Notes: a model not told the origin generated them from the letters alone. A stretch of 64,000 nucleotides of DNA from Candidatus Heimdallarchaeum aukensis (GCA_021513695.1 CP084166.1:736001-800000); one strand, 5' to 3'. Positions 6,430 through 21,746 are shown, counted from the first letter of the stretch. Numbers and translations: made by a program.

Positions 6430-7356
6430 TTATTTTAATTCTTTTAGAGCTTCTATTACTTTTTCAGCAACTTGAACGCTAGCTCTGTAATTTCCTTCAA
6501 GTGTTTGAGCACCTATATGAGGAGTCATAATTACATTGGGGTGTTTTAGGAGTTTGTTTTCTTCTTTAGGAGGTTCTTTTTCAAAGACATCAGTAGCATA
6601 TACAGCTAGTTTTCCTTTTTCTAAAGCTCGGTAAGCTGCTTCTTCGTCAACAACTCCTCCTCTTGCACAGTTAATGAGAACTACATTTGTTTTCATTTTC
6701 TCAAAAGCTTCATCTGAAATCATATGCCTTGTTTCATCAGTTAGTGGAAGATGAAGGCTGATGTAATCTGCTTTTTCAAAGACCTTGTCAATTGAACTTT
6801 GTAGGTCTATAACTCCGCTTTGTTTGATATACGCATCATATCCTATGGTTTTCATTCCGAGTGCTTTAGCTTTTACAGCTAAACTTGATCCTATTCTTCC
6901 TGTACCTATAATTCCTAATGTTTTTCCTTCTATTTCAACTGAAAATAATTCTTTTTTTAGTTTTTTAAATTCTGAAGGATTTTTTCTCAATCTTTCTGTT
7001 CCTGTTACTACTCGTCTGGTAGCTGCTAAAATCATAGTTAAAGCTAGTTCTGCAACTGAATTAGTTGTAGCATTTGGAGTGTTAATTACTTTTATTCCTC
7101 TTTCTCTTGCTGATTGTAAATCTATATTATCTAATCCTACACCAGCTCTACCTATAACTTTAAGATTTTTTGCTACTTCTAGTAGATGCCCTTTAACTTT
7201 AGTAGCAGACCTTACAATAATTGCGTCATATTCAGGTATAATGTGCTCTAATTCTTCTTTAGGTACATCCCAGGCTTTTTTTACTTCAAAACCTTCTTTT
7301 TCTAGCATTTCTACAGCTACTTCATTCAACTTATCAGCTATTAGTACTTTAAACAT
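6430..7356 (-). CDS. serA: D-isomer-specific 2-hydroxyacid dehydrogenase (D-3-phosphoglycerate dehydrogenase-like, no ACT domain)
   Basis: Rossmann motif GIIGTGRIGS, a catalytic R/E/H arrangement, and about 308 aa. It lies next to a class-V aminotransferase. Confidence 0.8.
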   Translation of the reverse strand: MFKVLIADKLNEVAVEMLEKEGFEVKKAWDVPKEELEHIIPEYDAIIVRSATKVKGHLLEVAKNLKVIGRAGVGLDNIDLQSARERGIKVINTPNATTNSVAELALTMILAATRRVVTGTERLRKNPSEFKKLKKELFSVEIEGKTLGIIGTGRIGSSLAVKAKALGMKTIGYDAYIKQSGVIDLQSSIDKVFEKADYISLHLPLTDETRHMISDEAFEKMKTNVVLINCARGGVVDEEAAYRALEKGKLAVYATDVFEKEPPKEENKLLKHPNVIMTPHIGAQTLEGNYRASVQVAEKVIEALKELK

Positions 7357-7366
7357 TTAATTCACC

Positions 7367-8446
7367 TCAATTAAGTTCCCAGATTTCATTAATATTGTTT
7401 AGCAATTCCTGAATTGTTTCTACTGTATGATCTCCCATATGTCCAATTCTGAAGGTTTTATCTTTAAGATTACCATAACCATTAGCTAGTTCCATTCCTC
7501 TTTCAGCTAATGCAGCATTTAGTGCTCCTACATCCTTATTTAATGTATTTTCTATTGTTGTGACAGTAACTGATTCATATCCTTCTTCTGCAAAGAGTTT
7601 AAACCCTTTTTCTAAAGCCCATTTTCTTGTTAACTCTGCCATTGCTTTATGTCTCTCATAACGACCTTTTGCTGTCTCTTTAAGCATTTTTCCAAGTTGA
7701 TAATCAAGAGCATAAAGTAATGAGATTGCTGGTGTAGAAGGAGTTTGTTTCTTCTTCAAATAGTACTTATGAACTTTTAGTAAATCAGTATAAGTTCCCC
7801 TATTCTTTACTTCTTCTGCTCGTTTAATAGCTTTTTCAGAATAAATCATAATGGTTAATCCTGGAGGTAGAGCAAAAGCTTTTTGGGTTGAAGCAAAAAC
7901 GAAATCAGTATGCATTTCGTCAGGTAGGATTAAATCTCCTCCTAAACTTGAAACAGTATCAACAACGAGTAATGTTTCAGGATACTTACTAATTACTTCA
8001 CCTATTGCTTTAAGATCACTTCTCACTCCTGTACTTGTCTCATTTTGACAAACAGTAACAACATCATACTCTTGTTCTTTAAGTTTTTCTTCAATCACTT
8101 CAGGTTTGATAGCTTTACCCCATTCTACTTCTAAAACATCAACATTATGCCCACAATCTTTTAGAGTATCAGCCATTCTTTTAGAAAAAGCTCCATTAAC
8201 ACAACTTAAAGCTGCTTTTCCTTCTCTAATCAGATTTCTACCCGTGATGTCCATACCAATTGTTCCTGAAGCAGCAAAGACAGCAATGTGTTGCTCAGTC
8301 TTAAAATATTCTCGAAGTTGGGTCAAAATGCTTGCATATAGAGCAGTAAAATCTTTATGACGATGACCAATCATTGGTTTTACTTGTGCTTGAAGCACAT
8401 CCTCACTTACTTCAGTAGGTCCTGGAATATACAATCTTCTGTGCAT
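7367..8446 (-). CDS. class V aminotransferase (archaeal-type phosphoserine / serine-pyruvate aminotransferase)
   Basis: Class-V fold with a PLP-lysine region (SSTQKAFALPPG). It is adjacent to, and on the same strand as, the serA-like gene. Confidence 0.8.
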   Translation of the reverse strand: MHRRLYIPGPTEVSEDVLQAQVKPMIGHRHKDFTALYASILTQLREYFKTEQHIAVFAASGTIGMDITGRNLIREGKAALSCVNGAFSKRMADTLKDCGHNVDVLEVEWGKAIKPEVIEEKLKEQEYDVVTVCQNETSTGVRSDLKAIGEVISKYPETLLVVDTVSSLGGDLILPDEMHTDFVFASTQKAFALPPGLTIMIYSEKAIKRAEEVKNRGTYTDLLKVHKYYLKKKQTPSTPAISLLYALDYQLGKMLKETAKGRYERHKAMAELTRKWALEKGFKLFAEEGYESVTVTTIENTLNKDVGALNAALAERGMELANGYGNLKDKTFRIGHMGDHTVETIQELLNNINEIWELN

Positions 8447-8577: not shown

Positions 8578-10533
8578 CTAAAACTCAATAAATGGTAAGA
8601 AAATAGATACTTTCGTTCCAACATGATGAATGCTATCTATAAATATTTGTCCATCATGTAATTCTACAAGATTTTTTGTTATATACAAACCTAACCCTGT
8701 TCCTTCACTTTTTTCAGCTTCATCTGTTCTGAAAAAGGGCTTGAAAACATATGGGAGATCATGACTAGGGATACCAATTCCATGGTCTTGAATCTGAATG
8801 AGTAATCCTTTTCTGTTATCAGGATTATATTCACCTACATAATCTTTGATAACTGTAACTTCGATTTTAGAATTACTTAAAGAATATTTTATTGCATTAT
8901 CTAAAACATTGGATATTATCTGCTTAATTCTTTTTGGATCACCAAAATACTGAATATCTTTTGTTTCGAATTTCTTTTCTAACCTAATTTTTTTGCTTTT
9001 TAATTGTTCTTCAAAACTTCTTATTGTCGAATTAATGTTTCTAATAATATTAAACTTCTTTTTCTCTACTTTGAATCTATTATTTTCTATTTTAGAGACT
9101 ACAAGTAAATCTTCAATTAATGTTGTTAAAAGATCTGCACTTTCTTCCATTACTTCCAAGGTAGAGAAAATCTTTCTTTTAGGTAATCTTTCCCAGTATT
9201 TTTTAAGAAATTGAATACTCAAACTTATAGATGTAATGGGAGTTCTTAATTCATGACTGACAGAAGAGATAAAGTTTTTTCTTAGTTTATCCAAAGTAAG
9301 AAAGGGAGTAATATCTTGAAATTCTATTAGAGCACCTATAAAACTCCCAGAAGAGGTGATATTTACTCCTGAGACCTGAATAAAGAAATTTTCAGACAAC
9401 TCAAATGTATCACAGACTTTTTCTTTTTCTATTATTAATTCTTTAATAAAGGAGAATAAAGGGTCGTCTTTAAACTTTTCAGAAAAGATATTTAATGATA
9501 ATAAAGGTTCTTTATCTTCGGGATAGAGAACACGATAGAATTCTTCAAATTTCTTATTAAATAGACTAAAATTCCCTTCATCATCAATCAACAACAAACC
9601 AGGTGAAACTGTTTCAAAAATTGCTTCAAGTTTTAGTTTCTCTTCTAAAAGTTCTTCATTTTTTCGCTCTACTATCATTGATAATTCAGAGCTTGTTTCT
9701 TTTAGCTCTTTTTCTCTTTCTACATGTTTAGTAATATCTGTTGCAACCCCTAAAGCTGCTATCTCACCACTTGGTAATTTAATAGGAATCTTTCTTACTT
9801 CAATTGTTCTTTTTTCTCCAAAGGCATCAGTAAAAGAGCTTGTAGTTTTTATCCTACTTTTAGTATCTATTACTTTCCTATCATACTTTAAGAAATAATC
9901 AGTTTCACTCTTTACAGGTTGTATATCATGCTGAATAGAACCCTCAATCTCGCTTATTGGTAAATTAAAACGGTCTGCTAAAGCTTTGTTAGCTAATAGA
10001 AATCTCCCTTCTTCATTTTTTACAAAAATCATTTGTGGAACTTGATCTATTACTTCTCTTAAGATATTTTTATTGAATTCGAGTTCCATAATTTCATCCA
10101 ATTTTGATGAAAAAGAAGAAGCTACAGCAACATGACAATCATTGGACGAGTTAAAAATCACTTTTAGTTTTACAGGTAGTCTTTTTCCTTCTTTTGCAAG
10201 TAAAAAAGTTACAAAAGTAAAAAAACTTTTTTTTGAATCTGATAACTTTAAATAATATTCCAAATTTTTTTCTTTGTCTTTCTCTTCGAAATACTCATTT
10301 ATTTTTTTTTCAAGTATGATAGACTTCTTAACTCCTATAAGATCTTCAGCTCTTTTGTTTATATAAAGAATGGATAGATTGTTATTAAAAACAAAAATTG
10401 CTTCTTCTAAACTATCAAAACAAGATAGAATATCTTCATATTTCAGCTTTAATCCATCTACTCTAGCAGATTCGTTTTCTGTATTTTTATTTTTTTTATT
10501 TGAAGATACATCATTGGAAAAAAGATTACTCAA
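8578..10533 (-). CDS. sensor histidine kinase with multiple PAS domains
   Basis: Three PAS-like segments are followed by HisKA (SHELRTPITSI) and an HATPase_c N/G-box region (NAIKYS, DHGIGIP, GTGLGLYI). TTG start sits 3 nt after the response-regulator stop. Confidence 0.85.
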   Translation of the reverse strand: MSNLFSNDVSSNKKNKNTENESARVDGLKLKYEDILSCFDSLEEAIFVFNNNLSILYINKRAEDLIGVKKSIILEKKINEYFEEKDKEKNLEYYLKLSDSKKSFFTFVTFLLAKEGKRLPVKLKVIFNSSNDCHVAVASSFSSKLDEIMELEFNKNILREVIDQVPQMIFVKNEEGRFLLANKALADRFNLPISEIEGSIQHDIQPVKSETDYFLKYDRKVIDTKSRIKTTSSFTDAFGEKRTIEVRKIPIKLPSGEIAALGVATDITKHVEREKELKETSSELSMIVERKNEELLEEKLKLEAIFETVSPGLLLIDDEGNFSLFNKKFEEFYRVLYPEDKEPLLSLNIFSEKFKDDPLFSFIKELIIEKEKVCDTFELSENFFIQVSGVNITSSGSFIGALIEFQDITPFLTLDKLRKNFISSVSHELRTPITSISLSIQFLKKYWERLPKRKIFSTLEVMEESADLLTTLIEDLLVVSKIENNRFKVEKKKFNIIRNINSTIRSFEEQLKSKKIRLEKKFETKDIQYFGDPKRIKQIISNVLDNAIKYSLSNSKIEVTVIKDYVGEYNPDNRKGLLIQIQDHGIGIPSHDLPYVFKPFFRTDEAEKSEGTGLGLYITKNLVELHDGQIFIDSIHHVGTKVSIFLPFIEF

Positions 10534-10535
10534 TA

Positions 10536-11441
10536 TTAATCACCTTGAATAGGTAGGACTGTAAGTATTTCTTCCCAAGCTTTCTTTATATCCCATTTTT
10601 CTTCATTTTTAACCTTATTTGAATAAGGAGCTAGTATTTCTTCCAATCTTTTAGTAATTATATAATCAATCCTTGGAGCAATAACTACAAGCATAAATGG
10701 TATTTGCTGAGATAAGCTTTCAAAATCCTCATACGCATCAATGTATATATAACAAGCCATACCTATATTTTCTAAAAACAAAGGCACTCCCTGGGGATTT
10801 GTTACTTTTAATTCTCCATATACAGAGATAATAGTTTGAAAGATTTGAACGCCTAAACTATCTAATTCAATTTGTTGTTCTATTTTCTTGGGAAAATAAT
10901 CTACTGGCTGAGGGCCCAGCACATCATGCCATTTAATTAAAAGCAAAAAAACAGAATCTTTTGAATAACTATATATACTATCATGAGCCATTAAATTCTG
11001 ACTTAACTCTAAAGTTATTTTCTTCTTTAGTTCTTCTCTAATTTGATAATTTAATTTTCTTTTAGCTAACTTTCCTTCAACTATTGCTATCAAATCTTCT
11101 TCTTTGAAGGGTTTAATTATATAATCATCTATTCCCAAAGATTTACCATATCTTACTGACTCTGGGTCACTTTTAGCAGTAAGAAAAACAAAAGGAATGT
11201 CAAAAAATCTTTCATCTCTTGAGATTTTTTCATATAGAGAATAACCATCCATTCCTGGCATCATTATATCACAAAGAATAAGATCAGGGGGTCGAGTTAG
11301 ATTTTCTAACAAAGTTAATGCTTCATCTGCACTCTGGGCTAAAACAGGAAAGTAGTCATACATAGATAAAATACTGTCTAGTAAATACAAGATTTGCTTA
11401 TTATCATCAATAATTAAAATCGTTCCTTTCAAATTATCCAA
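10536..11441 (-). CDS. response regulator: REC domain plus ~170-aa C-terminal domain of unknown function
   Basis: REC motifs ILIIDDN, the phospho-acceptor D in LILCDIMMPGMDG, and K in DDYIIKPF. The C-terminal half is not an HTH; it may be roadblock-like. TTG start. Confidence 0.8.
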   Translation of the reverse strand: MDNLKGTILIIDDNKQILYLLDSILSMYDYFPVLAQSADEALTLLENLTRPPDLILCDIMMPGMDGYSLYEKISRDERFFDIPFVFLTAKSDPESVRYGKSLGIDDYIIKPFKEEDLIAIVEGKLAKRKLNYQIREELKKKITLELSQNLMAHDSIYSYSKDSVFLLLIKWHDVLGPQPVDYFPKKIEQQIELDSLGVQIFQTIISVYGELKVTNPQGVPLFLENIGMACYIYIDAYEDFESLSQQIPFMLVVIAPRIDYIITKRLEEILAPYSNKVKNEEKWDIKKAWEEILTVLPIQGD

Positions 11442-11530
11442 TTTATAAATTAGGGCTAGATAAAATAAAATTTTTGCTAGTGCTAGTTTTGTTTAAATTT
11501 TGTTTAAATTTAATGAAATAGATGAGCACT

Positions 11531-12934
11531 CTAAATGTTCAGTACTACCAGTAGAATTGAATAGGCTGTACTTATTATCCCCATTATTATTATAAGAGGA
11601 AAGATTTTTTTAAAATAGTCTTTAAAAGTAAATTCTATTCCTTCTCTTTTCAAAATATCAAGAGACATCAGAATTGTTACACTTCCTAAGGGAGTGAGAG
11701 CTCCTCCTACATTATCAGCCAAGATTAAACTAACCCAAGTCCCTTTGAAAATAGGAACAGAAACGGTGTTAGAAATAGTGATGAAAATGTAAGAGAAAAT
11801 TAGAGCTGCACTTGTGTTATTTAGAAAACCAGCTAGTGGTATACCAATGATTATAAAGAATACAACAACTAAAATTTGTGCTACTGTAGGTGAAAAATTC
11901 AAATCAAAGAATAACAAAATTAAATTAGATAAAGGAATAAGAGCCCCTGAAGCAGCGAATATCCCCATAAGAGTGAAAAGCATTACAAAAAATGTAATCA
12001 TTTCCCATTCTACACCATGTTCTACATATTTTTTTAAAGTTGAATTAAAAATAAAAACTCCAATGACAGCTACAATGAAAGCTATTGTTCCTACATCTAA
12101 ACCTAATACTGAAGATAATAGAAATCCTCCAAATAGAAGCAATAGTAAAGCAAAAGATTTCCAAACTTTAATCTTACTTTCTACACTAGACCATGGATTA
12201 ATTCTAGCGATTTGACTTTTTTTATCTCTATCTACTTTTTTGTTTATTTCCTTTTTGAAGATATAGTAAAAGTATCCATAGGCTACAAAGAATAAAATAA
12301 ACGATATTGGAAACATTAAAGCAGTGAAACCAATAAAAGTAATGGTACCTGGATAGAGACTAAAGAATATAATGTTGGGTATAGATGAAACAGGAGTAGG
12401 CATTCCTCCGATAATTGTATTAATTCCAACGAAAAGAACAAAAGGTAATGGATTTACATCCAGTTGTTTGCAAATTACAATAGTTAAAGATCCTAGCAGT
12501 ATAATAGCTGAAAGATTATCAAAAAACATACTGATGAAGAATGTTAGTCCTCCAATTGACATGAAGAGCATTTTGGGATTTCCTTTTGTCAGTTTAATGA
12601 TGTAAAGAGATATGAAATCGAAAAACCCTGAATCCTTTATTAGTTGAACAATAATACTTACTGAGAATATAATCAAGATTGCTTCTACATTTACTAAATC
12701 CGAAATCGCTTCAATAAAATGAGGATGTTCATTTTCAAAATTATAACCAAGATTCACTTCAAGAAGATGTTCCCAATCCATTAAAAAGAAGAAAACTACT
12801 ATTGACAAAATTGTACCTAATGCAGTTACTTTCAAGGAATCAAACTTTTCGTTCATTAATCCAGCAATTGTTCCTAGAACAATTATTGTAATCAATATTG
12901 AGCCTACTATTGTTAGTGTTACCACGTTTATCAC
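11531..12934 (-). CDS. ArsB/NhaD-superfamily permease (Na+/H+ antiporter NhaD / citrate-transporter-like), copy 1
   Basis: About 12 TM segments in an internally duplicated topology. It is 50-60% identical by eye to the next gene. GTG start. Confidence 0.7.
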   Translation of the reverse strand: MINVVTLTIVGSILITIIVLGTIAGLMNEKFDSLKVTALGTILSIVVFFFLMDWEHLLEVNLGYNFENEHPHFIEAISDLVNVEAILIIFSVSIIVQLIKDSGFFDFISLYIIKLTKGNPKMLFMSIGGLTFFISMFFDNLSAIILLGSLTIVICKQLDVNPLPFVLFVGINTIIGGMPTPVSSIPNIIFFSLYPGTITFIGFTALMFPISFILFFVAYGYFYYIFKKEINKKVDRDKKSQIARINPWSSVESKIKVWKSFALLLLLFGGFLLSSVLGLDVGTIAFIVAVIGVFIFNSTLKKYVEHGVEWEMITFFVMLFTLMGIFAASGALIPLSNLILLFFDLNFSPTVAQILVVVFFIIIGIPLAGFLNNTSAALIFSYIFITISNTVSVPIFKGTWVSLILADNVGGALTPLGSVTILMSLDILKREGIEFTFKDYFKKIFPLIIIMGIISTAYSILLVVLNI

Positions 12935-13164
12935 CTAAAGGGCTATTATAGCATTGGATATTTTCATACATTTTTATCGCTTGAAAGTAAACTGATTTTC
13001 CATATAATATTAAGTTTCCAATCCCTAAATAGTATTCTTTTATATATTTTTTTTATTTTTTGATTAGCACAAAAAAGATATAATATTTTACTTATTTATA
13101 GAATAAATGTCAAGAAATTGTGGAAAATAAGTCCTTAAAACCAAGTTTTATGATTTTTGTTAAA

Positions 13165-14553
13165 CTAAGCTCCAAGAAGGATTAGAACTATTGAATAACC
13201 AATACTAAGTAACGCAAATGTTAGAGTTAGTGGAATTGTTTTTTTGACATAATCCATGAAAGTAATTTTATATCCTTCTCTATTCAATATCTCCAGAGCC
13301 ATCAAAATTGTTATACTTCCTAAAGGCGTTAGAGCTCCTCCAATATTACCTCCAAGTACAAAAGCTATCCATGTTCCTTTTCCAATAGTTGTTGAAACAG
13401 AAGCAACCATGGTTGTAAAAATATATGAGAATATTAAAGCTGCAGAAGAACCGTTAAGAAATCCTGTAATAGGTAAACCAATTAATCCTATTATTAGTGC
13501 AACGAGTATTTGAGCCGTTGTGGGTGAAATATCCAGATCGAAAATAGAGATAAATAGATTCGCAATAGGTTGCAAAGCTCCAGAGCCAGCGAGGACACCC
13601 ATTAAAACAAACAAGGCTACAAAAAATACAATCATCTCCCACTCTATTCCAGAGTGAATAAACTTTTTTAACTTTTTATTAAATAAGAATAATCCAAAAA
13701 CTGCAACTATTAGAGCTATTGTTGCTACATCTAAACCTATAACTGAAGAAAGGAGAAATCCTGAAAATAGAACAATTAACAGCCCTATTGATTTATATAC
13801 TTGACTTCTTTCTTCAATTCCAGACCAAGGATTAATTCTAGAGATTTGTTTTTGTTTTTCTTCGGGTATTTTAATGAATATATCTTTTTTGAATATAATA
13901 AAGAAATAGAGAGAAGACAAGATGAAGAACAGTAAAGCTATTGGAAACATTAATGCTGTGAACTTAATAAAACTCATATCACCCTCATACAAGCTGTAAA
14001 AGATGATATTTGGAAGTGAAGAAACAGGTGTAGGTAGTCCCCCTATTATAGTATTAATTCCAACAAATAAAACAAATGGAATAGGATTTAAATCCAATTG
14101 TTCACAGATAACTACAGTTAGAGATCCTAACAAAATTATTGCTGAAAGATTGTCGAAAAACATGCTAATGAAAAAAGTCAATCCTCCTAAAGCGATAATA
14201 AGCTTTTTAGGATCTCCTTTTGTTAATTTTACAATAGAAAGCGAGACAAAATCGAAGAATCCTGCTTCTTTGGTCAAAGAAACGATCACACTTACTGAAA
14301 AAATGATCAAAATTGCTTCTACATTTATCATCTCAGCAATAGCTTCTAAATAACCCTCAGGAATAAATTCATGGCTAGTGTTTTCTAGTAACAATTTATG
14401 CCAATCTGTAAAAAAGAAAAAAATCACCATAACTACAGAAGCTCCAGTTACTGTTATTTTTGTAGTGTCAACACCTTCAACCATTAAAGCTATTATTGTT
14501 GCAATTACAGTTACAGATATTAATATTATTCCTATTGTTTCCACTACAGCCAT
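13165..14553 (-). CDS. ArsB/NhaD-superfamily permease, copy 2 (tandem paralog)
   Basis: Collinear similarity to 11531..12934 (e.g. FFDNLSAIILLGSLT, GINTIIGG.PTPVSS.PNIIF). ATG start. Confidence 0.7.
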   Translation of the reverse strand: MAVVETIGIILISVTVIATIIALMVEGVDTTKITVTGASVVMVIFFFFTDWHKLLLENTSHEFIPEGYLEAIAEMINVEAILIIFSVSVIVSLTKEAGFFDFVSLSIVKLTKGDPKKLIIALGGLTFFISMFFDNLSAIILLGSLTVVICEQLDLNPIPFVLFVGINTIIGGLPTPVSSLPNIIFYSLYEGDMSFIKFTALMFPIALLFFILSSLYFFIIFKKDIFIKIPEEKQKQISRINPWSGIEERSQVYKSIGLLIVLFSGFLLSSVIGLDVATIALIVAVFGLFLFNKKLKKFIHSGIEWEMIVFFVALFVLMGVLAGSGALQPIANLFISIFDLDISPTTAQILVALIIGLIGLPITGFLNGSSAALIFSYIFTTMVASVSTTIGKGTWIAFVLGGNIGGALTPLGSITILMALEILNREGYKITFMDYVKKTIPLTLTFALLSIGYSIVLILLGA

Positions 14554-14574
14554 AAAATATTCCTTCTTTACAAC

Positions 14575-16485
14575 TTATTCAAAGTCATCAGTTTTTACTT
14601 CTTCTTCAAGTTCTTCTTCAATTTCTTCTGATTCTTCAAGCTTTTCTTTTTCAGTTGATTTTTTTGTTTCTGGCTTTTCTTTTTCTTCTTCCTTTAATGG
14701 AGTTTCTTCAGTTAATTCAGAAATTATTTCTTCTTTGATTAATGTCTTTGGGTCTTTTAGTTCTCTCTTCAGTTCATATTTTATTTCTTCTTTTATCTCT
14801 TCCCTTATCTCTTCTTTAATCTCTTCTTTTAATAAAGATAATGCATCTTTAGAAAAATCTTTCATTATCTCTTTCTTCAGTTCTTTTTTTGGTGCTTCTT
14901 TAATCTCTTTCTTTATTTCTTCTTTAATCTCTGCTTTAATCTCTGCTTTAATCTCTTCTTTAATTTCCTCTTTTTCATCTAAGGGTTTTTCTTCAATTTT
15001 ATCCATAATTAACTCCTCTTCAATTTCTTTTTTCTCTTCTTTCTCTTCCTTCTCTTCTTTCTTTTCTCTTTCTTCCTTCTCTTTTTTCTCTTCTTTCTCT
15101 TCTTTCTTTTCTTTCTCTTCCTTCTCTTCTTTCTTTTCTCTTTCTTCCTTCTCTTTTTTCTCTTCTTTCTCTTCTTTCTTTTCTTTCTCTTCCTTCTCTT
15201 CCTTCTTTTCTTTCTTTATTTCACTTTTTGTTGGCTTTTCTTTTACTTTTTTCTCTTCTTTAGTCTTTTCTTTAGTTTCTTTTTCTTCTATTACAGATGC
15301 TTCTTCAGGCTCTTCTATACCAAAAAGTTCTCTCTTTACTTCTTCTTTGATTTCCTCTCTAACAGTTTCTCCAATATCTATTTTCTTCGAAATAGTTTCT
15401 TCTTTAGGAACTGTATCACTAGAAACTGCTTTCTCTTCTTTTTTCTCTTTCTTTTTTATATCTTCAGTAATGATTAATAGAGGAACAGTAACATCAGGGT
15501 CGCTTAACAGATCTATAAACAGTCCATATAAATTGGCTAATTTAGATGGAAGATAAATAATTAATAATCCAAGATCCTTACCAAAACTAATCATTTGGTT
15601 TTTTAACTCTTCATGGTCAGATAAAGAAAGAATTTCGAAATCTACAAATCGTTGTGAATCTTCAAAAACAACTTGATTCGCGCGCTCGAATTTATTCATT
15701 TCTTCTTTTTGTTTTGAAAGTAATTCTAAAAACTCTTCATCATTTAGATCTTGATACAAATATCTATTTAACAAGAACATGCAGTGTATGTTTGCATTTT
15801 TTATACTAAATTGAATAGATTTTTCAATTAAATACGATAGTCTACTTATACTTCCTGTTACTATACCGATGTGTTTCCACAAATACTCAGTATTTAATTC
15901 TTGACTCTCAATTATTAATACGGGAACATCGTTTTCTTCTAAAAGATAATTGAAAACATCACCCATAACTTCTATTTTTGCTTCTTCTTTATCTTCTTCT
16001 TGCTTTACTTTAATACTTTTTTTCATACCAATAAAGGAAGAAGGAACAACAATAAGATCATAGGTTGAAGCGTTAATTATTGCAGAAATAATATTTTTTA
16101 ATCCATCAAGATCTTCAACAACATGACCTTTAATATTAAAAAGTTTGCTAGATAGATGCTCATATGCAAAAGACAATGCTTCATCATACTGTTCTTTATT
16201 TGTATCTTCTTTAGAATAAAAACAGATAACATCTACCGTTGCTTGGAAGAACAATCTGAGTTCTTCAGCAAGTAAAACAACAGTACGAGATTTTTTAGAA
16301 CCATCTATAAGAACTAATACACTTTTTATTGGTTTAGCTGAAGGATCAACTGAAGGTAGAAGGTTTGCAAACTTCTTTTTCTGCTCCTCAATTGTTTCCT
16401 TTTGCACTTCTATTTTATCCTGATGATTGGACATACTAATTCCTCTCTCTATGCTTTTTAATTTTTCTTTTTGATTTTTAAACAT
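14575..16485 (-). CDS. tandem universal-stress-protein (UspA) domain protein with ~300-aa C-terminal poly-Lys/Glu low-complexity tail
   Basis: Two USP-like units (VLVLIDGSKKSR...LIVVPSS and IGIVTGSISRLS...LLIITED). These are followed by EEIKEEVKRE..., (EIKx)n and an (EEKEEKEKKEEKEEKKEKEEREKK)n tail. ATG start. Confidence 0.65.
   Translation of the reverse strand: MFKNQKEKLKSIERGISMSNHQDKIEVQKETIEEQKKKFANLLPSVDPSAKPIKSVLVLIDGSKKSRTVVLLAEELRLFFQATVDVICFYSKEDTNKEQYDEALSFAYEHLSSKLFNIKGHVVEDLDGLKNIISAIINASTYDLIVVPSSFIGMKKSIKVKQEEDKEEAKIEVMGDVFNYLLEENDVPVLIIESQELNTEYLWKHIGIVTGSISRLSYLIEKSIQFSIKNANIHCMFLLNRYLYQDLNDEEFLELLSKQKEEMNKFERANQVVFEDSQRFVDFEILSLSDHEELKNQMISFGKDLGLLIIYLPSKLANLYGLFIDLLSDPDVTVPLLIITEDIKKKEKKEEKAVSSDTVPKEETISKKIDIGETVREEIKEEVKRELFGIEEPEEASVIEEKETKEKTKEEKKVKEKPTKSEIKKEKKEEKEEKEKKEEKEEKKEKEEREKKEEKEEKEKKEEKEEKKEKEEREKKEEKEEKEEKKEIEEELIMDKIEEKPLDEKEEIKEEIKAEIKAEIKEEIKKEIKEAPKKELKKEIMKDFSKDALSLLKEEIKEEIREEIKEEIKYELKRELKDPKTLIKEEIISELTEETPLKEEEKEKPETKKSTEKEKLEESEEIEEELEEEVKTDDFE
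15041..15200. repeat. perfect 72-bp tandem repeat (2.2 copies) inside the K/E-rich coding tail
   Basis: 15041-15112 is identical to 15113-15184 and the next ~16 nt continue the unit. Each unit encodes a 24-aa K/E repeat on the minus strand. Confidence 0.9.
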
Positions 16486-17881: not shown

Positions 17882-18655
17882 ATGAAGAAAAGATACTTAG
17901 AAGTCAAAGCAAGGTTTATTGCTGAAAAAATTTCACAAGCAAAGCACTTTATTGCTTTAACAGGTGCAGGGATTAGTACAGAGTCAGGTATTCCAGATTA
18001 TAGAGGAGATAACGGAATATACAAAAGTAAAGCACAAGGTAAAGAAGTGAAAGTAAAGCCTTTAGAAGAATTTGAGCCGAACCCTGCACACTACGCTTTA
18101 GTTAGATTACAAGATTTAGGCTTGTTAAAATTCATCATATCTCAAAATATAGATGGATTACATATTAAATCAGGAATAAAAGAATCACTAATTGCTGAAA
18201 TACACGGAAATTATTCTATTCTCAAATGTATTGAATGTGACTCAAGATTCACAAAAAAAGAAATGAATTGGGACAACGAGAAATATGGTTGGGGAGCAAG
18301 AAGTGCAGAGCCTAGCCCTGAACAACCAAACTGTCAAAATTGTGGTGGAAGATTAATTTCTTCAATTGTTAACTTTGGAGAACCAATGCCAGAAAAAGAG
18401 ATGAAATTAGCTAAAGAACATTCAAAAAAATGTGACTTAATGCTTGTTATTGGAACTAGCTTGAGAGTTGCACCAGCTAACACTCTTCCGAGTATCGCGG
18501 AGAAAAATGGTGCAGAGGTTTTTATCATTAACCTTAAACCTACAGGATTGGATAACATCTTAAAAAATGAAAGAATAAAAGCAAAAGCAGGAGAAATCTT
18601 GCCTTTAATAGTTAATTATATAGAGGAGAATATTGAAAAAGACAGTAAAACTTAG
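17882..18655 (+). CDS. Sir2-family NAD-dependent protein deacylase
   Basis: GAGISTESGIPDYRG, QNIDGLH, the Zn ribbon CIECDSRF...CQNCGG, and GTSLRVAP. Confidence 0.85.
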   Translation: MKKRYLEVKARFIAEKISQAKHFIALTGAGISTESGIPDYRGDNGIYKSKAQGKEVKVKPLEEFEPNPAHYALVRLQDLGLLKFIISQNIDGLHIKSGIKESLIAEIHGNYSILKCIECDSRFTKKEMNWDNEKYGWGARSAEPSPEQPNCQNCGGRLISSIVNFGEPMPEKEMKLAKEHSKKCDLMLVIGTSLRVAPANTLPSIAEKNGAEVFIINLKPTGLDNILKNERIKAKAGEILPLIVNYIEENIEKDSKT

Positions 18656-20325
18656 TTATCCTGATAAACTATTTCAACATCGATTAATGAAGAATAGTTA
18701 ATCTTACAACCCACAAAAGAACAAATTAAAATTAACCCATTTTTGAGTTCAGGAAAATTGTTTCCAAGTTCATTTAAAGTGATTTTTCTTCTTTGTTTAA
18801 TGAATTCTCTTAGATTTTCATATTTTATTTGTGTAATTATTCCAAATTCTGGAACAAAAACAAGGTTATTTTTTTCTATTTGTTCTTTGATTTGTTCGTA
18901 ATCCATGATTTTTTTGATATTATCAACGGAATAAAGACCTAGTTCATCAGCTAATTGATTAATCTCCACTACTTCATTATTGGAGGAGATTAATTCACAT
19001 ATTCCGATAAATTTTGTTATTATTGTTTCAATCCTTTCGCTTATATCAGAATATTTAGATTCAAGTAGATTATGTAACGTTAAACTAGGAATTTTGTTCT
19101 TCTTATAATAAACAATATCTACTGTTTCCAGAATATCATTAAAATGAGACTCTAGTTTTTTATCAACGAGATAGATTATAGGAAGATCAGTTTTCGCTAT
19201 TTCCAGCATTTTTGTTCTTTTTTTATGGATGTATTTTTCTGTATAGAAGCCTACAATTTCAAGGTAAACTTTCTTTTCTCCTCTTTTAAGCGTAAAATCT
19301 GGAACAAATATCTTATCAGCTAAAAAAATAGTTTCTGGTTCTGCTGTAGCTGTCCATCCTTTATTATTTTGCCATTGAGATAAGAAAATTCTTTCAATTT
19401 CTGAGTCTACTTCAAGTTGTTTTTCTTGTTCTCCTTCAGCTACAAATGTGTCTGATTTTCCAAAAGGAAGAGGAGGAGGATTAAAAGAATCTAATTGAAA
19501 AATTAAATTTCTTTTTCTTGGTTTTACTACGCTTTCTAGCTTAAATTGAATATTTTCCAAAAAGCAATATTTTATTATGAACAGAGCTACTGAAGTAATA
19601 TTTTTCCCCCATGTTGAAGCTCCTTCAAAAAATTCTGTAGGCGGTTCAATTTTCACTGAATAAGGAAAGTCAGGGTCATCTGTTTTCAATATTTCAGACC
19701 AAACATAATTAGCTTTAGAAAGAAAGATTATTCTTTTGGAAAATCCTCCAGGTAAGGAGGAAAGATTTATTGAAACATTTAAAGAGAAATTGAGTAGAGT
19801 TTCAATTAGGTCATAATTATATTCTTCTACAAGTTTTTTCGAATCAACATCATTCTCTATAACTTTAGTCAATATTTTCTCATGCTCTTTGTCTGCATAA
19901 AGTAAATTTTCTATATCTTGTTCAGAGATATTTTTTTCTTCCTTTATTTTTTGTAAGAAACTTGTTCTTTCTTCTTTACTTACAAAACCTTCTTGGTAGT
20001 GTTCACTTACAAAATCAAATATAAATTCTCTAAATTCTTCTATAGTTTCTATATTTAGACTTTCAAACTTCACATTAGGTTGCTGAAAGGTAAAATATCT
20101 TCTTGATGAAATTAAAATTGCTTCAGAAATCTTTTCTGATGGAAAAATCTCATTTAGAACCTTAAAATTTATTTCTCTTCTTTTCTTACCAATATTTGTT
20201 TCTAAAAAATTGATTATAACTGCTATTTTATTTTCATCTTTATATGTGAGAAAATAAGGAAAGATTTGCATTTTCTTGTTTATTTTTCTGGTTTCATATT
20301 CAAGTTTTGATAAAGCTAACCTCAC
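18652..20325 (-). CDS. Bax1-like nuclease (DUF790) partner of XPB
   Basis: It sits immediately downstream of, and co-directional with, the XPB helicase, with a 14-nt gap. This is the canonical archaeal xpb-bax1 arrangement. The size (557 aa) is consistent. The call rests on synteny, not on a verified motif. Confidence 0.55.
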   Translation of the reverse strand: MRLALSKLEYETRKINKKMQIFPYFLTYKDENKIAVIINFLETNIGKKRREINFKVLNEIFPSEKISEAILISSRRYFTFQQPNVKFESLNIETIEEFREFIFDFVSEHYQEGFVSKEERTSFLQKIKEEKNISEQDIENLLYADKEHEKILTKVIENDVDSKKLVEEYNYDLIETLLNFSLNVSINLSSLPGGFSKRIIFLSKANYVWSEILKTDDPDFPYSVKIEPPTEFFEGASTWGKNITSVALFIIKYCFLENIQFKLESVVKPRKRNLIFQLDSFNPPPLPFGKSDTFVAEGEQEKQLEVDSEIERIFLSQWQNNKGWTATAEPETIFLADKIFVPDFTLKRGEKKVYLEIVGFYTEKYIHKKRTKMLEIAKTDLPIIYLVDKKLESHFNDILETVDIVYYKKNKIPSLTLHNLLESKYSDISERIETIITKFIGICELISSNNEVVEINQLADELGLYSVDNIKKIMDYEQIKEQIEKNNLVFVPEFGIITQIKYENLREFIKQRRKITLNELGNNFPELKNGLILICSFVGCKINYSSLIDVEIVYQDN

Positions 20326-20339
20326 TTTAATCCCTTATC

Positions 20340-21746
20340 CTAAATAATTTCACTTTTCTTTCTCCTTTTTGCCGTCGAAACTTCTAAACTGCTTGATGTT
20401 ACAAGTTCATACAGTTTCACTTTTTCTGTTTTGGGTCTTAATAACCTGCCTAAACGTTGAATAAATTGTCTTGATTGCCCAGAACCACTAACTATAATTC
20501 CTACATTAGCTTCTTTTACATCTAATCCTTCATCCAAAACTTTACCCGTAACTAATTTTGAATACTTTCCTTCTTTGAATTTCTTGAGAATAACGTTTCT
20601 TTCCGAACTTTTTGTTTCGTGAGTGATTGAAGGAATAAGAAATCTTTTGCTTATCATATAGACCATATCATTGAATTCGCTAAAAATGAGTACTCGATCA
20701 CTCTTATGCCTTTTTAGTAATTCTGCTATTTTAACCAATTTAGATTGAGAAGAATAAACAATTGTTCGTGCTTTCCTATGTGCTTCTAAAGCTTCTTTAG
20801 CTTCTGGGTCAACATTTACTCTAAAGACTAAATAACGTTCATAATCTTTGGGAGATCTTATTTGAATTTTTCTTTTTCTTAAATAAGAGCGGTAAATGTT
20901 CATATATTTTTCATATTGCATTTGCTCTTTTTGGAACAAATCAATTTCAATTGTCTCTAAATCAAATTTGGCAACAAAACCTTCATTTACTAAATCAGAA
21001 ATAGTAGAAACAACGATTTGAGGACCAATTAATGTATAAAGTTCTTTTTCACCACTATCTGCTCTATCAGGTGTTGCAGTCAATCCTAATCGATAAGGAG
21101 CAGGAAATCCTTCTGCTATCTTAATTGTTTTTTCTGCAGGAAGATGGTGGACTTCATCAAAAATAATAAACGAAAAATGTTTTCTTAATGTGTTAATATT
21201 TTGCCTTGCACTTGCATAGGTTGTTACTGTAATATCTTTAATTTCTTTGACATTATCACCAAATTGACCTACCATTTCTCTTGTTATTGAAGTAAACTCT
21301 ACAATCGCTTTTATCCACTGCTCTAATAGGTTAATTACAGGAACAACAATCAATGTTTTTTGTTTTATTTTTTCTAAAGCTGAAAGACCAATAATTGTTT
21401 TTCCTGCAGCTGTAGGTAAGATAACTACTCCTCTATATTTGTTTAAAGTAAATCTTGTTAAGGTTTCTTTTTGATAATCTCTAAGTTGAACATTCAATTT
21501 AAGAGCTTGTTTGTATTCGTCTGATAAATGAATCTCTTCCAAGATTGTTGAATTAACAAAAAACCCTTCTCTTTTTAGTCTTTCAACTATTGTTTGATAA
21601 CGAAAAGGAAGAGCTCTATACTCATTTTCAACTTTTTTACTTATTTTAACTATTCTTGACCATTTCTTCATTTCTAAAGGGTGTGATGTCTGAATTATTA
21701 AATCAAAAGCAAGACCTAGTTTCACTTTAGCTTCTTTTCTATTCAT
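20340..21746 (-). CDS. xpb: XPB/Rad25-type SF2 DNA helicase
   Basis: Q-motif RDYQKE, Walker A LPTAAGKT, motif II DEVHH, and motif VI QRLGRLLR. There is an N-terminal damage-recognition-like domain. Confidence 0.75.
   Translation of the reverse strand: MNRKEAKVKLGLAFDLIIQTSHPLEMKKWSRIVKISKKVENEYRALPFRYQTIVERLKREGFFVNSTILEEIHLSDEYKQALKLNVQLRDYQKETLTRFTLNKYRGVVILPTAAGKTIIGLSALEKIKQKTLIVVPVINLLEQWIKAIVEFTSITREMVGQFGDNVKEIKDITVTTYASARQNINTLRKHFSFIIFDEVHHLPAEKTIKIAEGFPAPYRLGLTATPDRADSGEKELYTLIGPQIVVSTISDLVNEGFVAKFDLETIEIDLFQKEQMQYEKYMNIYRSYLRKRKIQIRSPKDYERYLVFRVNVDPEAKEALEAHRKARTIVYSSQSKLVKIAELLKRHKSDRVLIFSEFNDMVYMISKRFLIPSITHETKSSERNVILKKFKEGKYSKLVTGKVLDEGLDVKEANVGIIVSGSGQSRQFIQRLGRLLRPKTEKVKLYELVTSSSLEVSTAKRRKKSEII

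What the first reader, a model, noticed from the sequence alone, without database searches (positions are those of the whole stretch)
8578..16485. Co-directional cluster: PAS sensor kinase, REC regulator, duplicated NhaD/ArsB permeases and a tandem-USP protein
Five consecutive minus-strand genes sit together: USP-KE protein, permease copy 2, permease copy 1, REC protein (non-HTH output) and a PAS histidine kinase. The HK TTG start is 3 nt after the REC stop. The two permeases are clear tandem paralogs. USP-domain proteins frequently regulate, or are co-regulated with, ion/solute transporters. The REC protein lacks a DNA-binding domain, so the output may be protein-protein (possibly transporter-directed) rather than transcriptional. 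This looks like an integrated stress/ion-homeostasis module.
Basis: partly seen in the sequence, partly recalled or inferred. Interest (0 to 1): 0.5.

Follow-up and report, generated by a model that had tools for sequence, protein, structure and literature searches.

The report
Longin-output response regulator beside transporter genes
In a Heimdall-group archaeon, the five neighbouring genes are two separate units: a conserved stress-protein-like gene with its solute transporter (duplicated here), and a bacterial-style sensor kinase whose partner protein ends in a eukaryote-type 'longin' domain of the class that switches small GTPases, so its output is probably protein-to-protein rather than gene regulation.

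Summary
All five minus-strand genes exist at the stated coordinates. Exact protein matches place the window in Candidatus Heimdallarchaeum aukensis. Three labels need correcting. The permeases are 60% identical CitMHS-type ion-transporter-superfamily paralogs and are not NhaD. Only the first half of the 'tandem USP' protein shows a weak USP signal. The response regulator's unassigned 170 aa are a longin domain of the FLCN/SMCR8/NPRL2/C9orf72 'GAP-longin' class. The AF2 model has pLDDT 92.7 with longin topology. hhalign scores against SMCR8 and C9orf72 lie about 6 SD above shuffles, while SEC22B and LAMTOR2 controls score at null. The GP motif is kept, but the catalytic arginine found in 75% of the family is missing.

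Synteny splits the cluster. The USP-like→permease pair is conserved in 5 of 5 distinct Heimdall loci. The kinase/regulator pair joins it in only two lineages, in opposite orientations, and both times sits directly upstream of an aminotransferase and a phosphoglycerate-dehydrogenase-like gene. Other family members are fused to Ras/Arf GTPases. In two Loki-type loci they occur as Arg+/Arg− pairs beside an Arf/Rag-like GTPase.

Longin fusions to two-component domains in Asgard archaea were already noted by Liu et al. 2020/2021. This is a new member of a known kind, of moderate interest.

The parts
14575..16485 (-). USP-like protein with a K/E-rich tail (ORF of 636 aa; likely start Met18 at 16434)
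   Evidence: ORF. The orthologue in L001 starts at the residue aligned to Met18, and a GAGAGAGGA site precedes it. The family has 31 members, all Heimdall, and some are named 'universal stress protein' by NCBI.
15910..16329 (-). Divergent USP-like domain (aa 53-192)
   Evidence: Pfam Usp E 0.0037, 18.3 bits against a cut-off of 24, covering profile positions 2-140 of 141. 12 of 24 orthologues hit Usp, best E 1.5e-5. Read directly from the sequence, the canonical G-x2-G-x9-G(S/T) ATP motif is not recognisable.
15451..15888 (-). Conserved second domain of unknown fold (aa ~200-345)
   Evidence: About 74% identical to L001 across the N-terminal 328 aa. No Pfam or PDB hit. hhalign against domain 1 is not significant.
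14578..15450 (-). K/E-rich low-complexity tail (291 aa, 64% K+E) with a recent 72-nt tandem repeat
   Evidence: Composition. 72-nt period, 2.6 copies, 97% matches at 15026-15211. The tail is absent from the 331-358 aa family members. The antisense ORF 14378-15556(+) is a by-product of this repeat.
13165..14553 (-). Permease A: CitMHS-type ion-transporter-superfamily permease, the ancestral partner of the USP-like gene
   Evidence: Pfam CitMHS 1.3e-42. 61-77% identical to the single permease of every outgroup locus. 21-nt gap after the USP-like stop, with an AAGGA site. Identical to UJG41440.1.
11531..12934 (-). Permease B: tandem duplicate seen only in Heimdallarchaeum-type loci, faster evolving
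   Evidence: 60% identical to A. Only 50-61% identical to outgroup permeases. Present in H. endolithica (L007) and L003, absent from L001 and L014-18. A 230-nt gap with a T6 run separates it from A.
10536..11441 (-). Response regulator: REC, long linker helix and GAP-type longin domain (301 aa, TTG start)
   Evidence: Identical to UJG41438.1, annotated 'response regulator'.
11079..11420 (-). REC receiver domain with intact D12-D13, D58, T88 and K110
10986..11102 (-). Long alpha-5/linker helix (aa 114-152)
10563..10949 (-). Longin domain (aa 165-293) of the FLCN/SMCR8/NPRL2/C9orf72 class
   Evidence: AF2 pLDDT 92.7 with topology b-b-a-b-b-b-a-a. hhalign against SMCR8 scores 29.1 and against C9orf72 28.2, with nulls of about 12+-2.6 and 0 of 100 shuffles reaching them. 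Controls SEC22B 11.8 and LAMTOR2 9.8 are at null. The family has 132 representatives.
10911..10931 (-). W171-H-D-V-L-G176-P177: the WD/GP motif region before strand 2
   Evidence: Family conservation: W 96%, G 97%, P 95%, D after W 77% (His here). The GP aligns with SMCR8 G68-P69. The motif is defined in PMC12290439.
10713..10715 (-). Leu243 at the position of the catalytic arginine finger (beta4-beta5 loop)
   Evidence: This column is Arg in 91 of 122 family representatives and aligns with SMCR8 R147. It falls in the loop between AF2 strands 228-238 and 246-255.
8578..10533 (-). Cytoplasmic PAS-PAS-(PAS)-HisKA-HATPase_c histidine kinase (651 aa, TTG start)
   Evidence: Pfam. H427 in HELRTP, G1 DHGIG, G2 GTGLG, no hydrophobic segment. 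Identical to UJG41437.1. T6 and T7 runs follow the stop.
6430..8446 (-). Class-V aminotransferase (7367-8446) and short phosphoglycerate-dehydrogenase-like gene (6430-7356): conserved co-directional downstream neighbours of the kinase
   Evidence: Pfam and NCBIfam. The same order regulator-kinase-aminotransferase-dehydrogenase occurs in L001 and L007.

Best explanation
The five-gene run is two functional units lying side by side in Candidatus Heimdallarchaeum aukensis. Unit 1 is a pair found across several Heimdall lineages. It consists of a divergent USP-like cytoplasmic protein followed by a CitMHS-type ion-transporter-superfamily permease of unknown substrate. Only the Heimdallarchaeum-type loci show a tandem duplication of the permease (A ancestral, B derived). 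By analogy with TeaD/TeaABC, I infer that the USP-like protein modulates its permease. Unit 2 is a complete two-component pair: a soluble multi-PAS histidine kinase and a response regulator built as REC, long helix and longin domain. The longin belongs to the FLCN/SMCR8/NPRL2/C9orf72 'GAP-longin' class. It keeps the GP motif and the Trp but lacks the arginine finger, so it resembles the non-catalytic subunit (C9orf72, FNIP, NPRL3). Inferred mechanism: the kinase senses a cytoplasmic signal through its PAS domains and phosphorylates D58. Receiver dimerisation, transmitted through the long helix, then changes how the longin domain pairs with itself or with an arginine-bearing longin partner. That in turn controls an Arf/Rag-like small GTPase, so the output is post-translational. 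Shown: gene structures, domain identities, motif states and synteny patterns. Inferred: phosphotransfer, dimerisation, the GTPase target and the role of the USP-like protein.
For: Organism and gene models. REC and kinase catalytic residues intact. Longin identity: AF2 pLDDT 92.7 with b-b-a-b-b-b-a-a topology; a family profile aligns full-length to the C9orf72 longin; hhalign against SMCR8 scores 29.1 and against C9orf72 28.2 with 0 of 100 shuffles reaching them, NPRL2 19.4 with 1 of 100; SEC22B and LAMTOR2 controls are at null; GP aligns with SMCR8 G68-P69 and the family Arg with R147; one member has a weak Pfam Folliculin hit. Family motif statistics and the window's missing Arg. GTPase link: the same longin is fused to Ras-like (P0056) and Arf-like (P0089) GTPases, and Arg+/Arg- REC-longin pairs lie beside an Arf/Gtr1_RagA GTPase in L020 and L021. 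Kinase link elsewhere in the family: L012 has three kinases alongside, L019 has one, and hybrid kinase-REC-longin proteins exist (P0035; P0045 has the same domain order by direct reading of its sequence). Two-unit architecture: USP-like then permease in 5 of 5 distinct loci, but the kinase/regulator pair adjacent in only 2 lineages and inverted between them. Permease A is orthologous to the outgroup single copies. T-runs and gaps of 230 nt and 89 nt separate A, B and the regulator gene. Literature: Liu et al. report NPRL2-like longin fusions to two-component domains in Asgard archaea. The GAP-longin motif definitions come from PMC12290439.
Confidence: 0.6

Rival explanations
1. Integrated module. 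All five genes form one regulon or operon. The phosphorylated regulator acts directly on the permeases or the USP-like protein to tune solute or ion flux under stress.
For: All five genes are co-directional in H. aukensis and H. endolithica. The kinase/regulator pair also borders the USP-like/permease unit in the more distant L001. Eukaryotic longin GAP complexes are recruited by transporters, for example PQLC2 for C9orf72-SMCR8 (PMC12290439).
Against: The USP-like/permease unit is inverted relative to the kinase/regulator pair in L001. The pair is absent beside the orthologous USP-like/permease unit in L014/15 and L016-18. Intergenic gaps of 230 nt and 89 nt carry T-runs. Other family members sit in unrelated contexts.
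Confidence: 0.15
2. The two-component pair belongs functionally with the downstream aminotransferase and phosphoglycerate-dehydrogenase-like genes. It would be an amino-acid or serine-related nutrient circuit, and the permeases would be only neighbours.
For: The order regulator, kinase, aminotransferase, dehydrogenase is co-directional and conserved in the window, in L007 and in the distant L001, even though the USP-like/permease unit flips. Other REC-longin loci carry glutamine synthetase and AsnC regulators (L020) or a full-length PGDH about 6 kb away (L019). Liu et al. link NPRL2-like longins to amino-acid starvation signalling.
Against: The aminotransferase/dehydrogenase pair also lies next to the USP-like/permease unit without any two-component genes in L014/15, so the adjacency may be inherited rather than functional. 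A 131-nt gap with T6 and T7 runs follows the kinase. A regulator without a DNA-binding domain has no obvious route to these genes. The amino-acid gene neighbours elsewhere are anecdotal.
Confidence: 0.15
3. The arginine-less longin is a decayed or purely structural dimerisation module. The regulator would act as a phosphate sink or scaffold with no GTPase-related role.
For: The arginine finger is missing and Asp34 of the C9orf72 WD motif is His here. No partner is encoded in the window.
Against: The domain is well conserved: 59% identity to P0002 with long invariant stretches that include the WHDVLGPQP motif. About 25% of the family are arginine-less, and some of these sit next to arginine-bearing paralogues. 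This mirrors the obligate non-catalytic subunits of the eukaryotic complexes.
Confidence: 0.1

Closest known systems
Eukaryotic longin GAP complexes: FLCN-FNIP, GATOR1 NPRL2-NPRL3 and C9orf72-SMCR8
   Same: Longin fold, a GP motif before strand 2, a Trp at the C9orf72 W33 position, and across the family an Arg in the beta4-beta5 loop that aligns with SMCR8 R147. Arg+ and Arg- variants coexist and are sometimes adjacent.
   Different: There is no DENN domain. The longin is fused to a bacterial-type receiver and partnered with a histidine kinase. The window's copy lacks the Arg and has His for Asp34. Sequence similarity is marginal in absolute terms. GAP activity is untested.
Asgard 'NPRL2-like longin fused to two-component domains' (Liu et al. 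2020/2021) and Asgard FLCN/SMCR8-type longins (Traffic 2025, PMC12290439)
   Same: The same kind of architecture in the same superphylum. The window's regulator fits this description.
   Different: Neither paper, in the text I searched, describes this protein, the Arg+/Arg- pairing of REC-longin paralogues, or the permease and USP-like context. NCBI and UniRef call it only 'response regulator'.
Myxococcus MglA/MglB with the receiver protein RomR (RomR-RomX)
   Same: A prokaryotic small GTPase is controlled by a Roadblock/longin-type dimer, with a receiver-domain protein in the circuit (abstracts).
   Different: There the REC and the GTPase regulator are separate proteins, and MglB is a Roadblock rather than a GAP-longin. 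A LAMTOR2 roadblock control shows no similarity to this family.
USP-regulated transporters: TeaD with the TeaABC TRAP transporter, and Rv2623 with Rv1747
   Same: A small USP-family protein is encoded with, or acts on, a transporter (cited in PMC12159084). Here a USP-like gene precedes a permease in 5 of 5 loci.
   Different: The USP signal is sub-threshold, the ATP motif is not recognisable, and the protein carries an extra conserved domain and a K/E tail. The permease is CitMHS-type rather than TRAP or ABC. No interaction has been shown.
REC, helical linker and output regulators such as PleD and DgcR
   Different: The output is a longin domain rather than a GGDEF domain. The dimerisation mechanism is inferred only.

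Membership tests
Two-component response regulator (REC) | Receiver fold with an acidic pocket (DD), a phospho-acceptor Asp, a conserved Thr/Ser and a Lys | tested here: met
Two-component response regulator (REC) | A cognate histidine kinase with H-box and G1/G2 boxes encoded alongside | tested here: met
   The kinase starts 2 nt after the regulator's stop. H427 (HELRTP), DHGIG and GTGLG are present. Phosphotransfer itself cannot be tested here.
GAP-type longin (FLCN/SMCR8/NPRL2/C9orf72 class) | Longin fold (b-b-a-b-b-b-a-a) | tested here: met
   AF2 with 60 sequences, pLDDT 92.7: E165-172, E176-183, H193-208, E217-223, E228-238, E246-255, H260-278, H285-293. Not confirmed by a fold library, because those searches were swamped by REC hits.
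GAP-type longin (FLCN/SMCR8/NPRL2/C9orf72 class) | GP motif at the loop/start of strand 2, absent from non-GAP longins (PMC12290439) | tested here: met
   G176-P177. Family G 97%, P 95%. Aligns with SMCR8 G68-P69.
GAP-type longin (FLCN/SMCR8/NPRL2/C9orf72 class) | Catalytic arginine finger (SMCR8 R147, FLCN R164, NPRL2 R78) | tested here: not met
   The window has Leu243 at the column that is Arg in 91 of 122 family representatives and that aligns with SMCR8 R147. The protein therefore resembles the non-catalytic partner type.
GAP-type longin (FLCN/SMCR8/NPRL2/C9orf72 class) | WD motif of the C9orf72-type subunit (W33-D34) | tested here: inconclusive
   W171 is present, but the next residue is His (W-H-D). 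The family has D at that position in 77%.
GAP-type longin (FLCN/SMCR8/NPRL2/C9orf72 class) | Detectable sequence homology to the eukaryotic members | tested here: inconclusive
   hhalign scores of 29.1 (SMCR8) and 28.2 (C9orf72) are about 6 SD above shuffles and the controls are null. However the probability is about 40%, PDB hmmsearch gives E about 1, and FLCN is not significant.
GAP-type longin (FLCN/SMCR8/NPRL2/C9orf72 class) | GAP activity on an Arf/Rag GTPase as a longin heterodimer | not testable with these tools
   Only contextual support: fusions to Ras/Arf GTPases and Arg+/Arg- pairs beside a GTPase in L020 and L021.
Universal stress protein (PF00582) | Match to the family model above its gathering score | tested here: not met
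   18.3-18.5 bits against a cut-off of 24. 12 of 24 orthologues give weak hits, best 1.5e-5. No PDB USP hit with family profiles.
Universal stress protein (PF00582) | Tandem arrangement (a second USP domain) | tested here: not met
   No Pfam hit for aa 200-345. hhalign of domain 1 against domain 2 gives E 0.53.
CitMHS / ion-transporter superfamily permease | Match to PF03600 above its gathering score over most of the protein | tested here: met
   146.6 and 147.1 bits against a cut-off of 31.9. Multiple hydrophobic segments.
ArsB arsenite pump | Reaches NCBIfam ArsB model cut-offs | tested here: not met
   56-91 bits against cut-offs of 415-760. Distant PDB ArsB hit, E 4e-12.
NhaD Na+/H+ antiporter | Reaches the TIGR00775 cut-off | tested here: not met
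   24.8 and 29 bits against 577.
Single co-conserved five-gene module | All components co-occur and keep their order in related genomes | tested here: not met
   Only the USP-like/permease pair is conserved (5 of 5 loci). The kinase/regulator pair is adjacent in 2 lineages with opposite relative orientation. The duplicated permease was seen only in Heimdallarchaeum-type loci.

The most novel reading that the evidence does not exclude
A prokaryote-type phosphorelay (PAS kinase to REC) directly controls a eukaryote-type longin GAP subunit. That subunit works as an Arg+/Arg- heterodimer on an Arf/Rag-like GTPase. In Heimdallarchaeum the switch is physically and functionally coupled to a solute permease and to amino-acid biosynthesis genes. 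This would make it an archaeal forerunner of the transporter, longin-GAP and Rag/Arf nutrient-sensing axis (PQLC2 with C9orf72-SMCR8, SLC38A9 with FLCN, GATOR1).
Probability: 0.12. Interest if true: 0.85.

Novelty: new member of a known kind. Interest (0 to 1): 0.5.

Why it matters
Heimdallarchaeia are among the closest known archaeal relatives of eukaryotes. The FLCN, GATOR1 and C9orf72-SMCR8 longin GAPs are central to eukaryotic nutrient sensing. This regulator is publicly annotated only as 'response regulator'. It is a compact, tractable case in which such a longin is wired to a classical kinase/receiver pair. It gives a defined set of proteins for testing whether phosphorylation controlled longin-GTPase switches before eukaryotes arose, and whether the division into a catalytic and a non-catalytic subunit predates eukaryotes. 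The analysis also corrects the functional reading of the cluster. There is no evidence for an ion-homeostasis operon. What is conserved is a USP-like/permease pair of unknown substrate.

Tried and rejected

(2) The word-indexed homologue search found only 2 relatives of the longin domain, both with the single sequence and with the profile. The exhaustive representative search was needed to find the family.

(3) Related-locus scans gave little. The A4 profile was too divergent to use. The permease profile found only H. endolithica in GTDB representatives. The USP profile found nothing in metagenome contigs. The regulator profile found one 1-kb contig.

(4) Pfam and NCBIfam at E<=10 on the regulator's C-terminus gave nothing. 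Scanning 38 family members gave one weak Folliculin hit.

(5) PDB sequence and profile searches for the USP-like protein gave no USP hit.

(6) An internal-duplication test of the USP-like protein was negative.

(7) I considered and rejected a mobile-island origin. GC is flat at 29-30% across the region, and the window has no tRNA or Rfam hits.

(8) The sigma-70 promoter/terminator scanner was not used, because the organism is an archaeon. I only read T-runs and Shine-Dalgarno-like sites by eye.

(9) The supplement of PMC12290439 is not held, so I could not check whether its 14 Asgard longins include REC fusions.

Full report
**1. What is in the sequence**

The window region 8578-16485 holds five consecutive minus-strand ORFs at exactly the stated coordinates:
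- a 636-aa protein with a K/E-rich tail (14575-16485);
- two permeases of 462 aa (13165-14553) and 467 aa (11531-12934);
- a 301-aa receiver protein (10536-11441, TTG start);
- a 651-aa histidine kinase (8578-10533, TTG start).

The kinase start follows the regulator's TAA stop after two bases. GC content is flat at 29-30% through the region. The window has no tRNA or Rfam hits.

Exact-sequence look-ups identify the regulator, the kinase and permease A as UJG41438.1, UJG41437.1 and UJG41440.1. These lie on the 3.08-Mb chromosome of Candidatus Heimdallarchaeum aukensis. Public annotation calls the regulator only 'response regulator'.

**2. Permeases**

Both permeases match Pfam CitMHS strongly (about 147 bits against a cut-off of 31.9), ArsB weakly and DctM marginally.

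They stay far below every NCBIfam cut-off: ArsB-type models 56-91 bits against 415-760, MamN 76-91 against 500, DASS 37-58 against 199, and NhaD 25-29 against 577. The only solved relative is an ArsB, at E 4e-12.

They are therefore uncharacterised members of the ion-transporter superfamily. They are not NhaD, and the substrate is unknown.

They are 60% identical over 457 aa. Every outgroup locus has a single permease, and it is closer to copy A (61-77%) than to copy B (50-61%). A is therefore the ancestral gene. B is a faster-evolving duplicate seen only in H. aukensis, H. endolithica (L007) and near-identical metagenome contigs (L003).

**3. The 'tandem USP' protein**

- Residues 53-192 hit Pfam Usp over the whole profile but below threshold (E 0.0037, 18.3 bits against 24).
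- A family of 31 proteins, all from Heimdall-group archaea, was recovered. NCBI names some of them 'universal stress protein'.
- 12 of 24 members give weak Usp hits, best E 1.5e-5.
- Family profiles hit no USP among solved structures.
- The conserved second half (aa ~200-345) has no Pfam hit and no detectable similarity to the first half.
- The 291-aa tail is 64% Lys+Glu. It contains a 72-nt tandem repeat (2.6 copies, 97% matches) and is missing from the 331-358 aa family members.
- The true start is probably Met18 (16434). The L001 orthologue starts there and a GAGAGAGGA site precedes it.

The protein is best described as one divergent USP-like domain, an unknown conserved domain and a variable charged tail.

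**4. The response regulator's C-terminus**

*4.1 The family.* The receiver is intact: D12-D13, D58, T88 and K110 are present. The last 170 aa match no Pfam model even at E 10.

An exhaustive profile search found 132 cluster representatives. Most are about 295 aa with the same REC-plus-domain layout.

The same domain is also fused to:
- Ras-like (P0056) and Arf-like (P0089) GTPases;
- a hybrid kinase-REC protein (P0035; P0045 has the same domain order by direct reading of its sequence);
- RsbRD_N (P0011) and DUF1638 (P0018).

The named members checked all come from Asgard archaea: Heimdall, Loki and Hel groups.

*4.2 Fold.* AlphaFold2 with a 60-sequence alignment gave pLDDT 92.7. The model shows a receiver, a long helix (114-152) and then strands and helices in the order b-b-a-b-b-b-a-a, which is the longin topology.

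*4.3 Similarity to eukaryotic GAP-longins.*
- A 38-sequence domain profile aligns end to end with the C9orf72 longin domain among PDB sequences, though only at E about 1.
- I verified the human target sequences against PDB chains before using them.
- hhalign of the profile scores 29.1 against SMCR8 55-202 and 28.2 against C9orf72 30-158.
- The shuffled nulls are about 12 +/- 2.6, and 0 of 100 shuffles reach the observed scores.
- NPRL2 scores 19.4 (1 of 100 shuffles reach it). FLCN is not significant.
- Two negative controls score at null: the SEC22B longin (11.8) and the LAMTOR2 roadblock (9.8).
- One member has a weak Pfam Folliculin hit.

*4.4 Motifs.* In the SMCR8 alignment the family's GP falls on G68-P69, and the family's conserved Arg falls on the catalytic R147. 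These are the motifs that PMC12290439 uses to define GAP-type longins, and that paper also reports them in some Asgard longins.

Across the family the conservation is W 96%, the following D 77%, G 97%, P 95% and the loop Arg 75%.

The window protein reads W171-H-D-V-L-G176-P177. It has Leu243 where the Arg should be, as does its 59%-identical relative P0002. It is therefore a GAP-class longin of the arginine-less, C9orf72/FNIP/NPRL3-like kind.

**5. Kinase**

The kinase has two clear PAS domains and probably a third, followed by HisKA and HATPase_c. H427, G1 and G2 are intact, and there is no hydrophobic segment, so it is a cytoplasmic sensor.

It evolves much faster than its neighbours:

| Comparison | Kinase | Regulator | Other genes |
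|---|---|---|---|
| H. aukensis vs H. endolithica | 80% | 94% | 91-97% |
| Window vs L001 | 42% | 61% | 72-87% |

**6. Synteny**

The order USP-like then permease recurs in five distinct loci:
- the window (with L007 and L003);
- L001;
- L014/15;
- L016/17;
- L018.

USP-like identity to the window protein ranges from 74% down to 39%.

The kinase/regulator pair is adjacent only in the window type and in L001. In L001 the USP-like/permease unit is inverted and divergent from the pair.

In L014/15 the USP-like/permease unit sits directly beside, and divergent from, the aminotransferase and dehydrogenase genes, with no two-component genes. In L016-18 a DUF1858-DUF438-hemerythrin-PAS_10 gene precedes it.

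Where the two-component pair is present, the order regulator, kinase, class-V aminotransferase and PGDH-like gene is co-directional in both lineages.

In the window the intergenic distances are:
- 21 nt between the USP-like gene and permease A;
- 230 nt with a T6 run between A and B;
- 89 nt with a T4AT4 run between B and the regulator gene;
- 2 nt between the regulator and the kinase;
- 131 nt with T6 and T7 runs after the kinase.

The cluster is therefore a conserved USP-like/permease pair next to a lineage-specific two-component pair. It is not one co-conserved module.

**7. Context of other family members**

| Locus | Neighbours of the REC-longin gene |
|---|---|
| L012 | three histidine kinases alongside |
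| L019 | a divergent kinase and a stand-alone receiver |
| L004 | no kinase nearby |
| L020 | Arf/Gtr1_RagA-family GTPase and a second REC-longin paralogue |
| L021 | Arf/Gtr1_RagA-family GTPase and a second REC-longin paralogue |

In L020 and L021, one paralogue carries the loop Arg and the other lacks it. In L020 the loop is deleted in the second copy. In L021 one copy has His at that position.

This parallels the pairing of a catalytic and a non-catalytic subunit in FLCN-FNIP, NPRL2-NPRL3 and SMCR8-C9orf72. I did not find this pairing described in the papers I searched.

The window holds no second copy of the domain. Its nearest Arf-family gene is at 36873-37835.

**8. Mechanism**

- Shown: a complete, apparently functional kinase/receiver pair whose output is a GAP-class longin without the arginine finger, and a conserved USP-like/permease pair.
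- Inferred, step 1: PAS-sensed cytoplasmic signals drive phosphorylation of D58.
- Inferred, step 3: this changes longin pairing, probably with an arginine-bearing partner encoded elsewhere, and so controls an Arf/Rag-like GTPase.
- Inferred, by analogy: the USP-like protein modulates its permease, as TeaD does for TeaABC and Rv2623 for Rv1747.

I put about 0.85 on the longin identity, about 0.75 on the two-unit architecture and about 0.45 on a GTPase-directed output.

**9. Relation to what is known**

Liu et al. [quoted passage not shown] They propose that growth regulation there remains centred on two-component systems.

PMC12290439 describes GP-motif and arginine-finger longins in Heimdallarchaeia but does not mention receivers.

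The window's regulator is thus a new, unannotated member of a known kind. Three points are additional here: its arginine-less state, the Arg+/Arg- pairs next to GTPases in other loci, and the finding that the neighbouring permease cluster is a separate conserved unit.

**10. Verdict**

The family labels are partly wrong. The 'integrated stress/ion-homeostasis module' reading is only partly supported.

Interest is moderate (0.5). The locus is an accessible test case for how prokaryotic phosphorelays met eukaryote-type GTPase regulators. The general architecture, however, is already in the literature, and the functional links proposed here are inferred.

Noticed in passing
L020 6191-8968 and L021 5907-10707: REC-longin genes occur as neighbouring pairs, one with the loop arginine and one without, beside an Arf/Gtr1_RagA-family small GTPase. 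This is the same catalytic/non-catalytic split seen in eukaryotic longin GAP heterodimers. L020 also carries glutamine synthetase and AsnC regulators next door.
   Followed up: partly
window 36873-37835 (-): A 320-aa Arf-family small GTPase (Pfam Arf 1e-35, aa 8-181) with an uncharacterised C-terminal extension of about 140 aa. It does not match the REC-longin family profile.
   Followed up: partly
L016 7359-8756, L017 1878-3275, L018 7359-8756: In the more distant Heimdall loci a 465-aa DUF1858-DUF438-hemerythrin-PAS_10 protein is encoded directly upstream of, and co-directional with, the USP-like/permease pair. It may be an alternative sensor for that unit.
   Followed up: no
window 15026-15211 (within the K/E tail of the USP-like gene): A 72-nt tandem repeat (2.6 copies, 97% matches) encodes EKEEKEKKEEKEEKKEKEEREKK-type units. 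The tail is absent from many orthologues, so it is recent and variable. The antisense ORF 14378-15556(+) is a by-product.
   Followed up: partly
window 8578-10533 compared with L007 and L001: The histidine kinase diverges much faster than its neighbours: 80% against 91-97% between the two Heimdallarchaeum species, and 42% against 61-87% to L001.
   Followed up: no
window 18652-21746 (-): An XPB/ERCC3-type helicase (20340-21746) is followed by a DUF790 protein (18652-20325). From my own knowledge this resembles the archaeal XPB-Bax1 nuclease pair; I did not test that here. A Sir2-family deacetylase gene converges on it at 17882-18655.
   Followed up: no
P0074, P0077, P0083, P0098 (e.g. L012 8001-9248, L019 7001-8278): Some family members carry an additional C-terminal domain of about 120 aa after the GAP-type longin. 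It has no Pfam hit. By direct reading of the sequence it looks like another roadblock/longin-type module.
   Followed up: no
window 25939-27009 (+) and L001 2959-4029: A DAGK_cat/YegS-type lipid kinase gene lies immediately next to the permease in L001 (72% identical to the window's copy) but is about 10 kb from the cluster in the window. This shows local rearrangement around the USP-like/permease unit.
   Followed up: no
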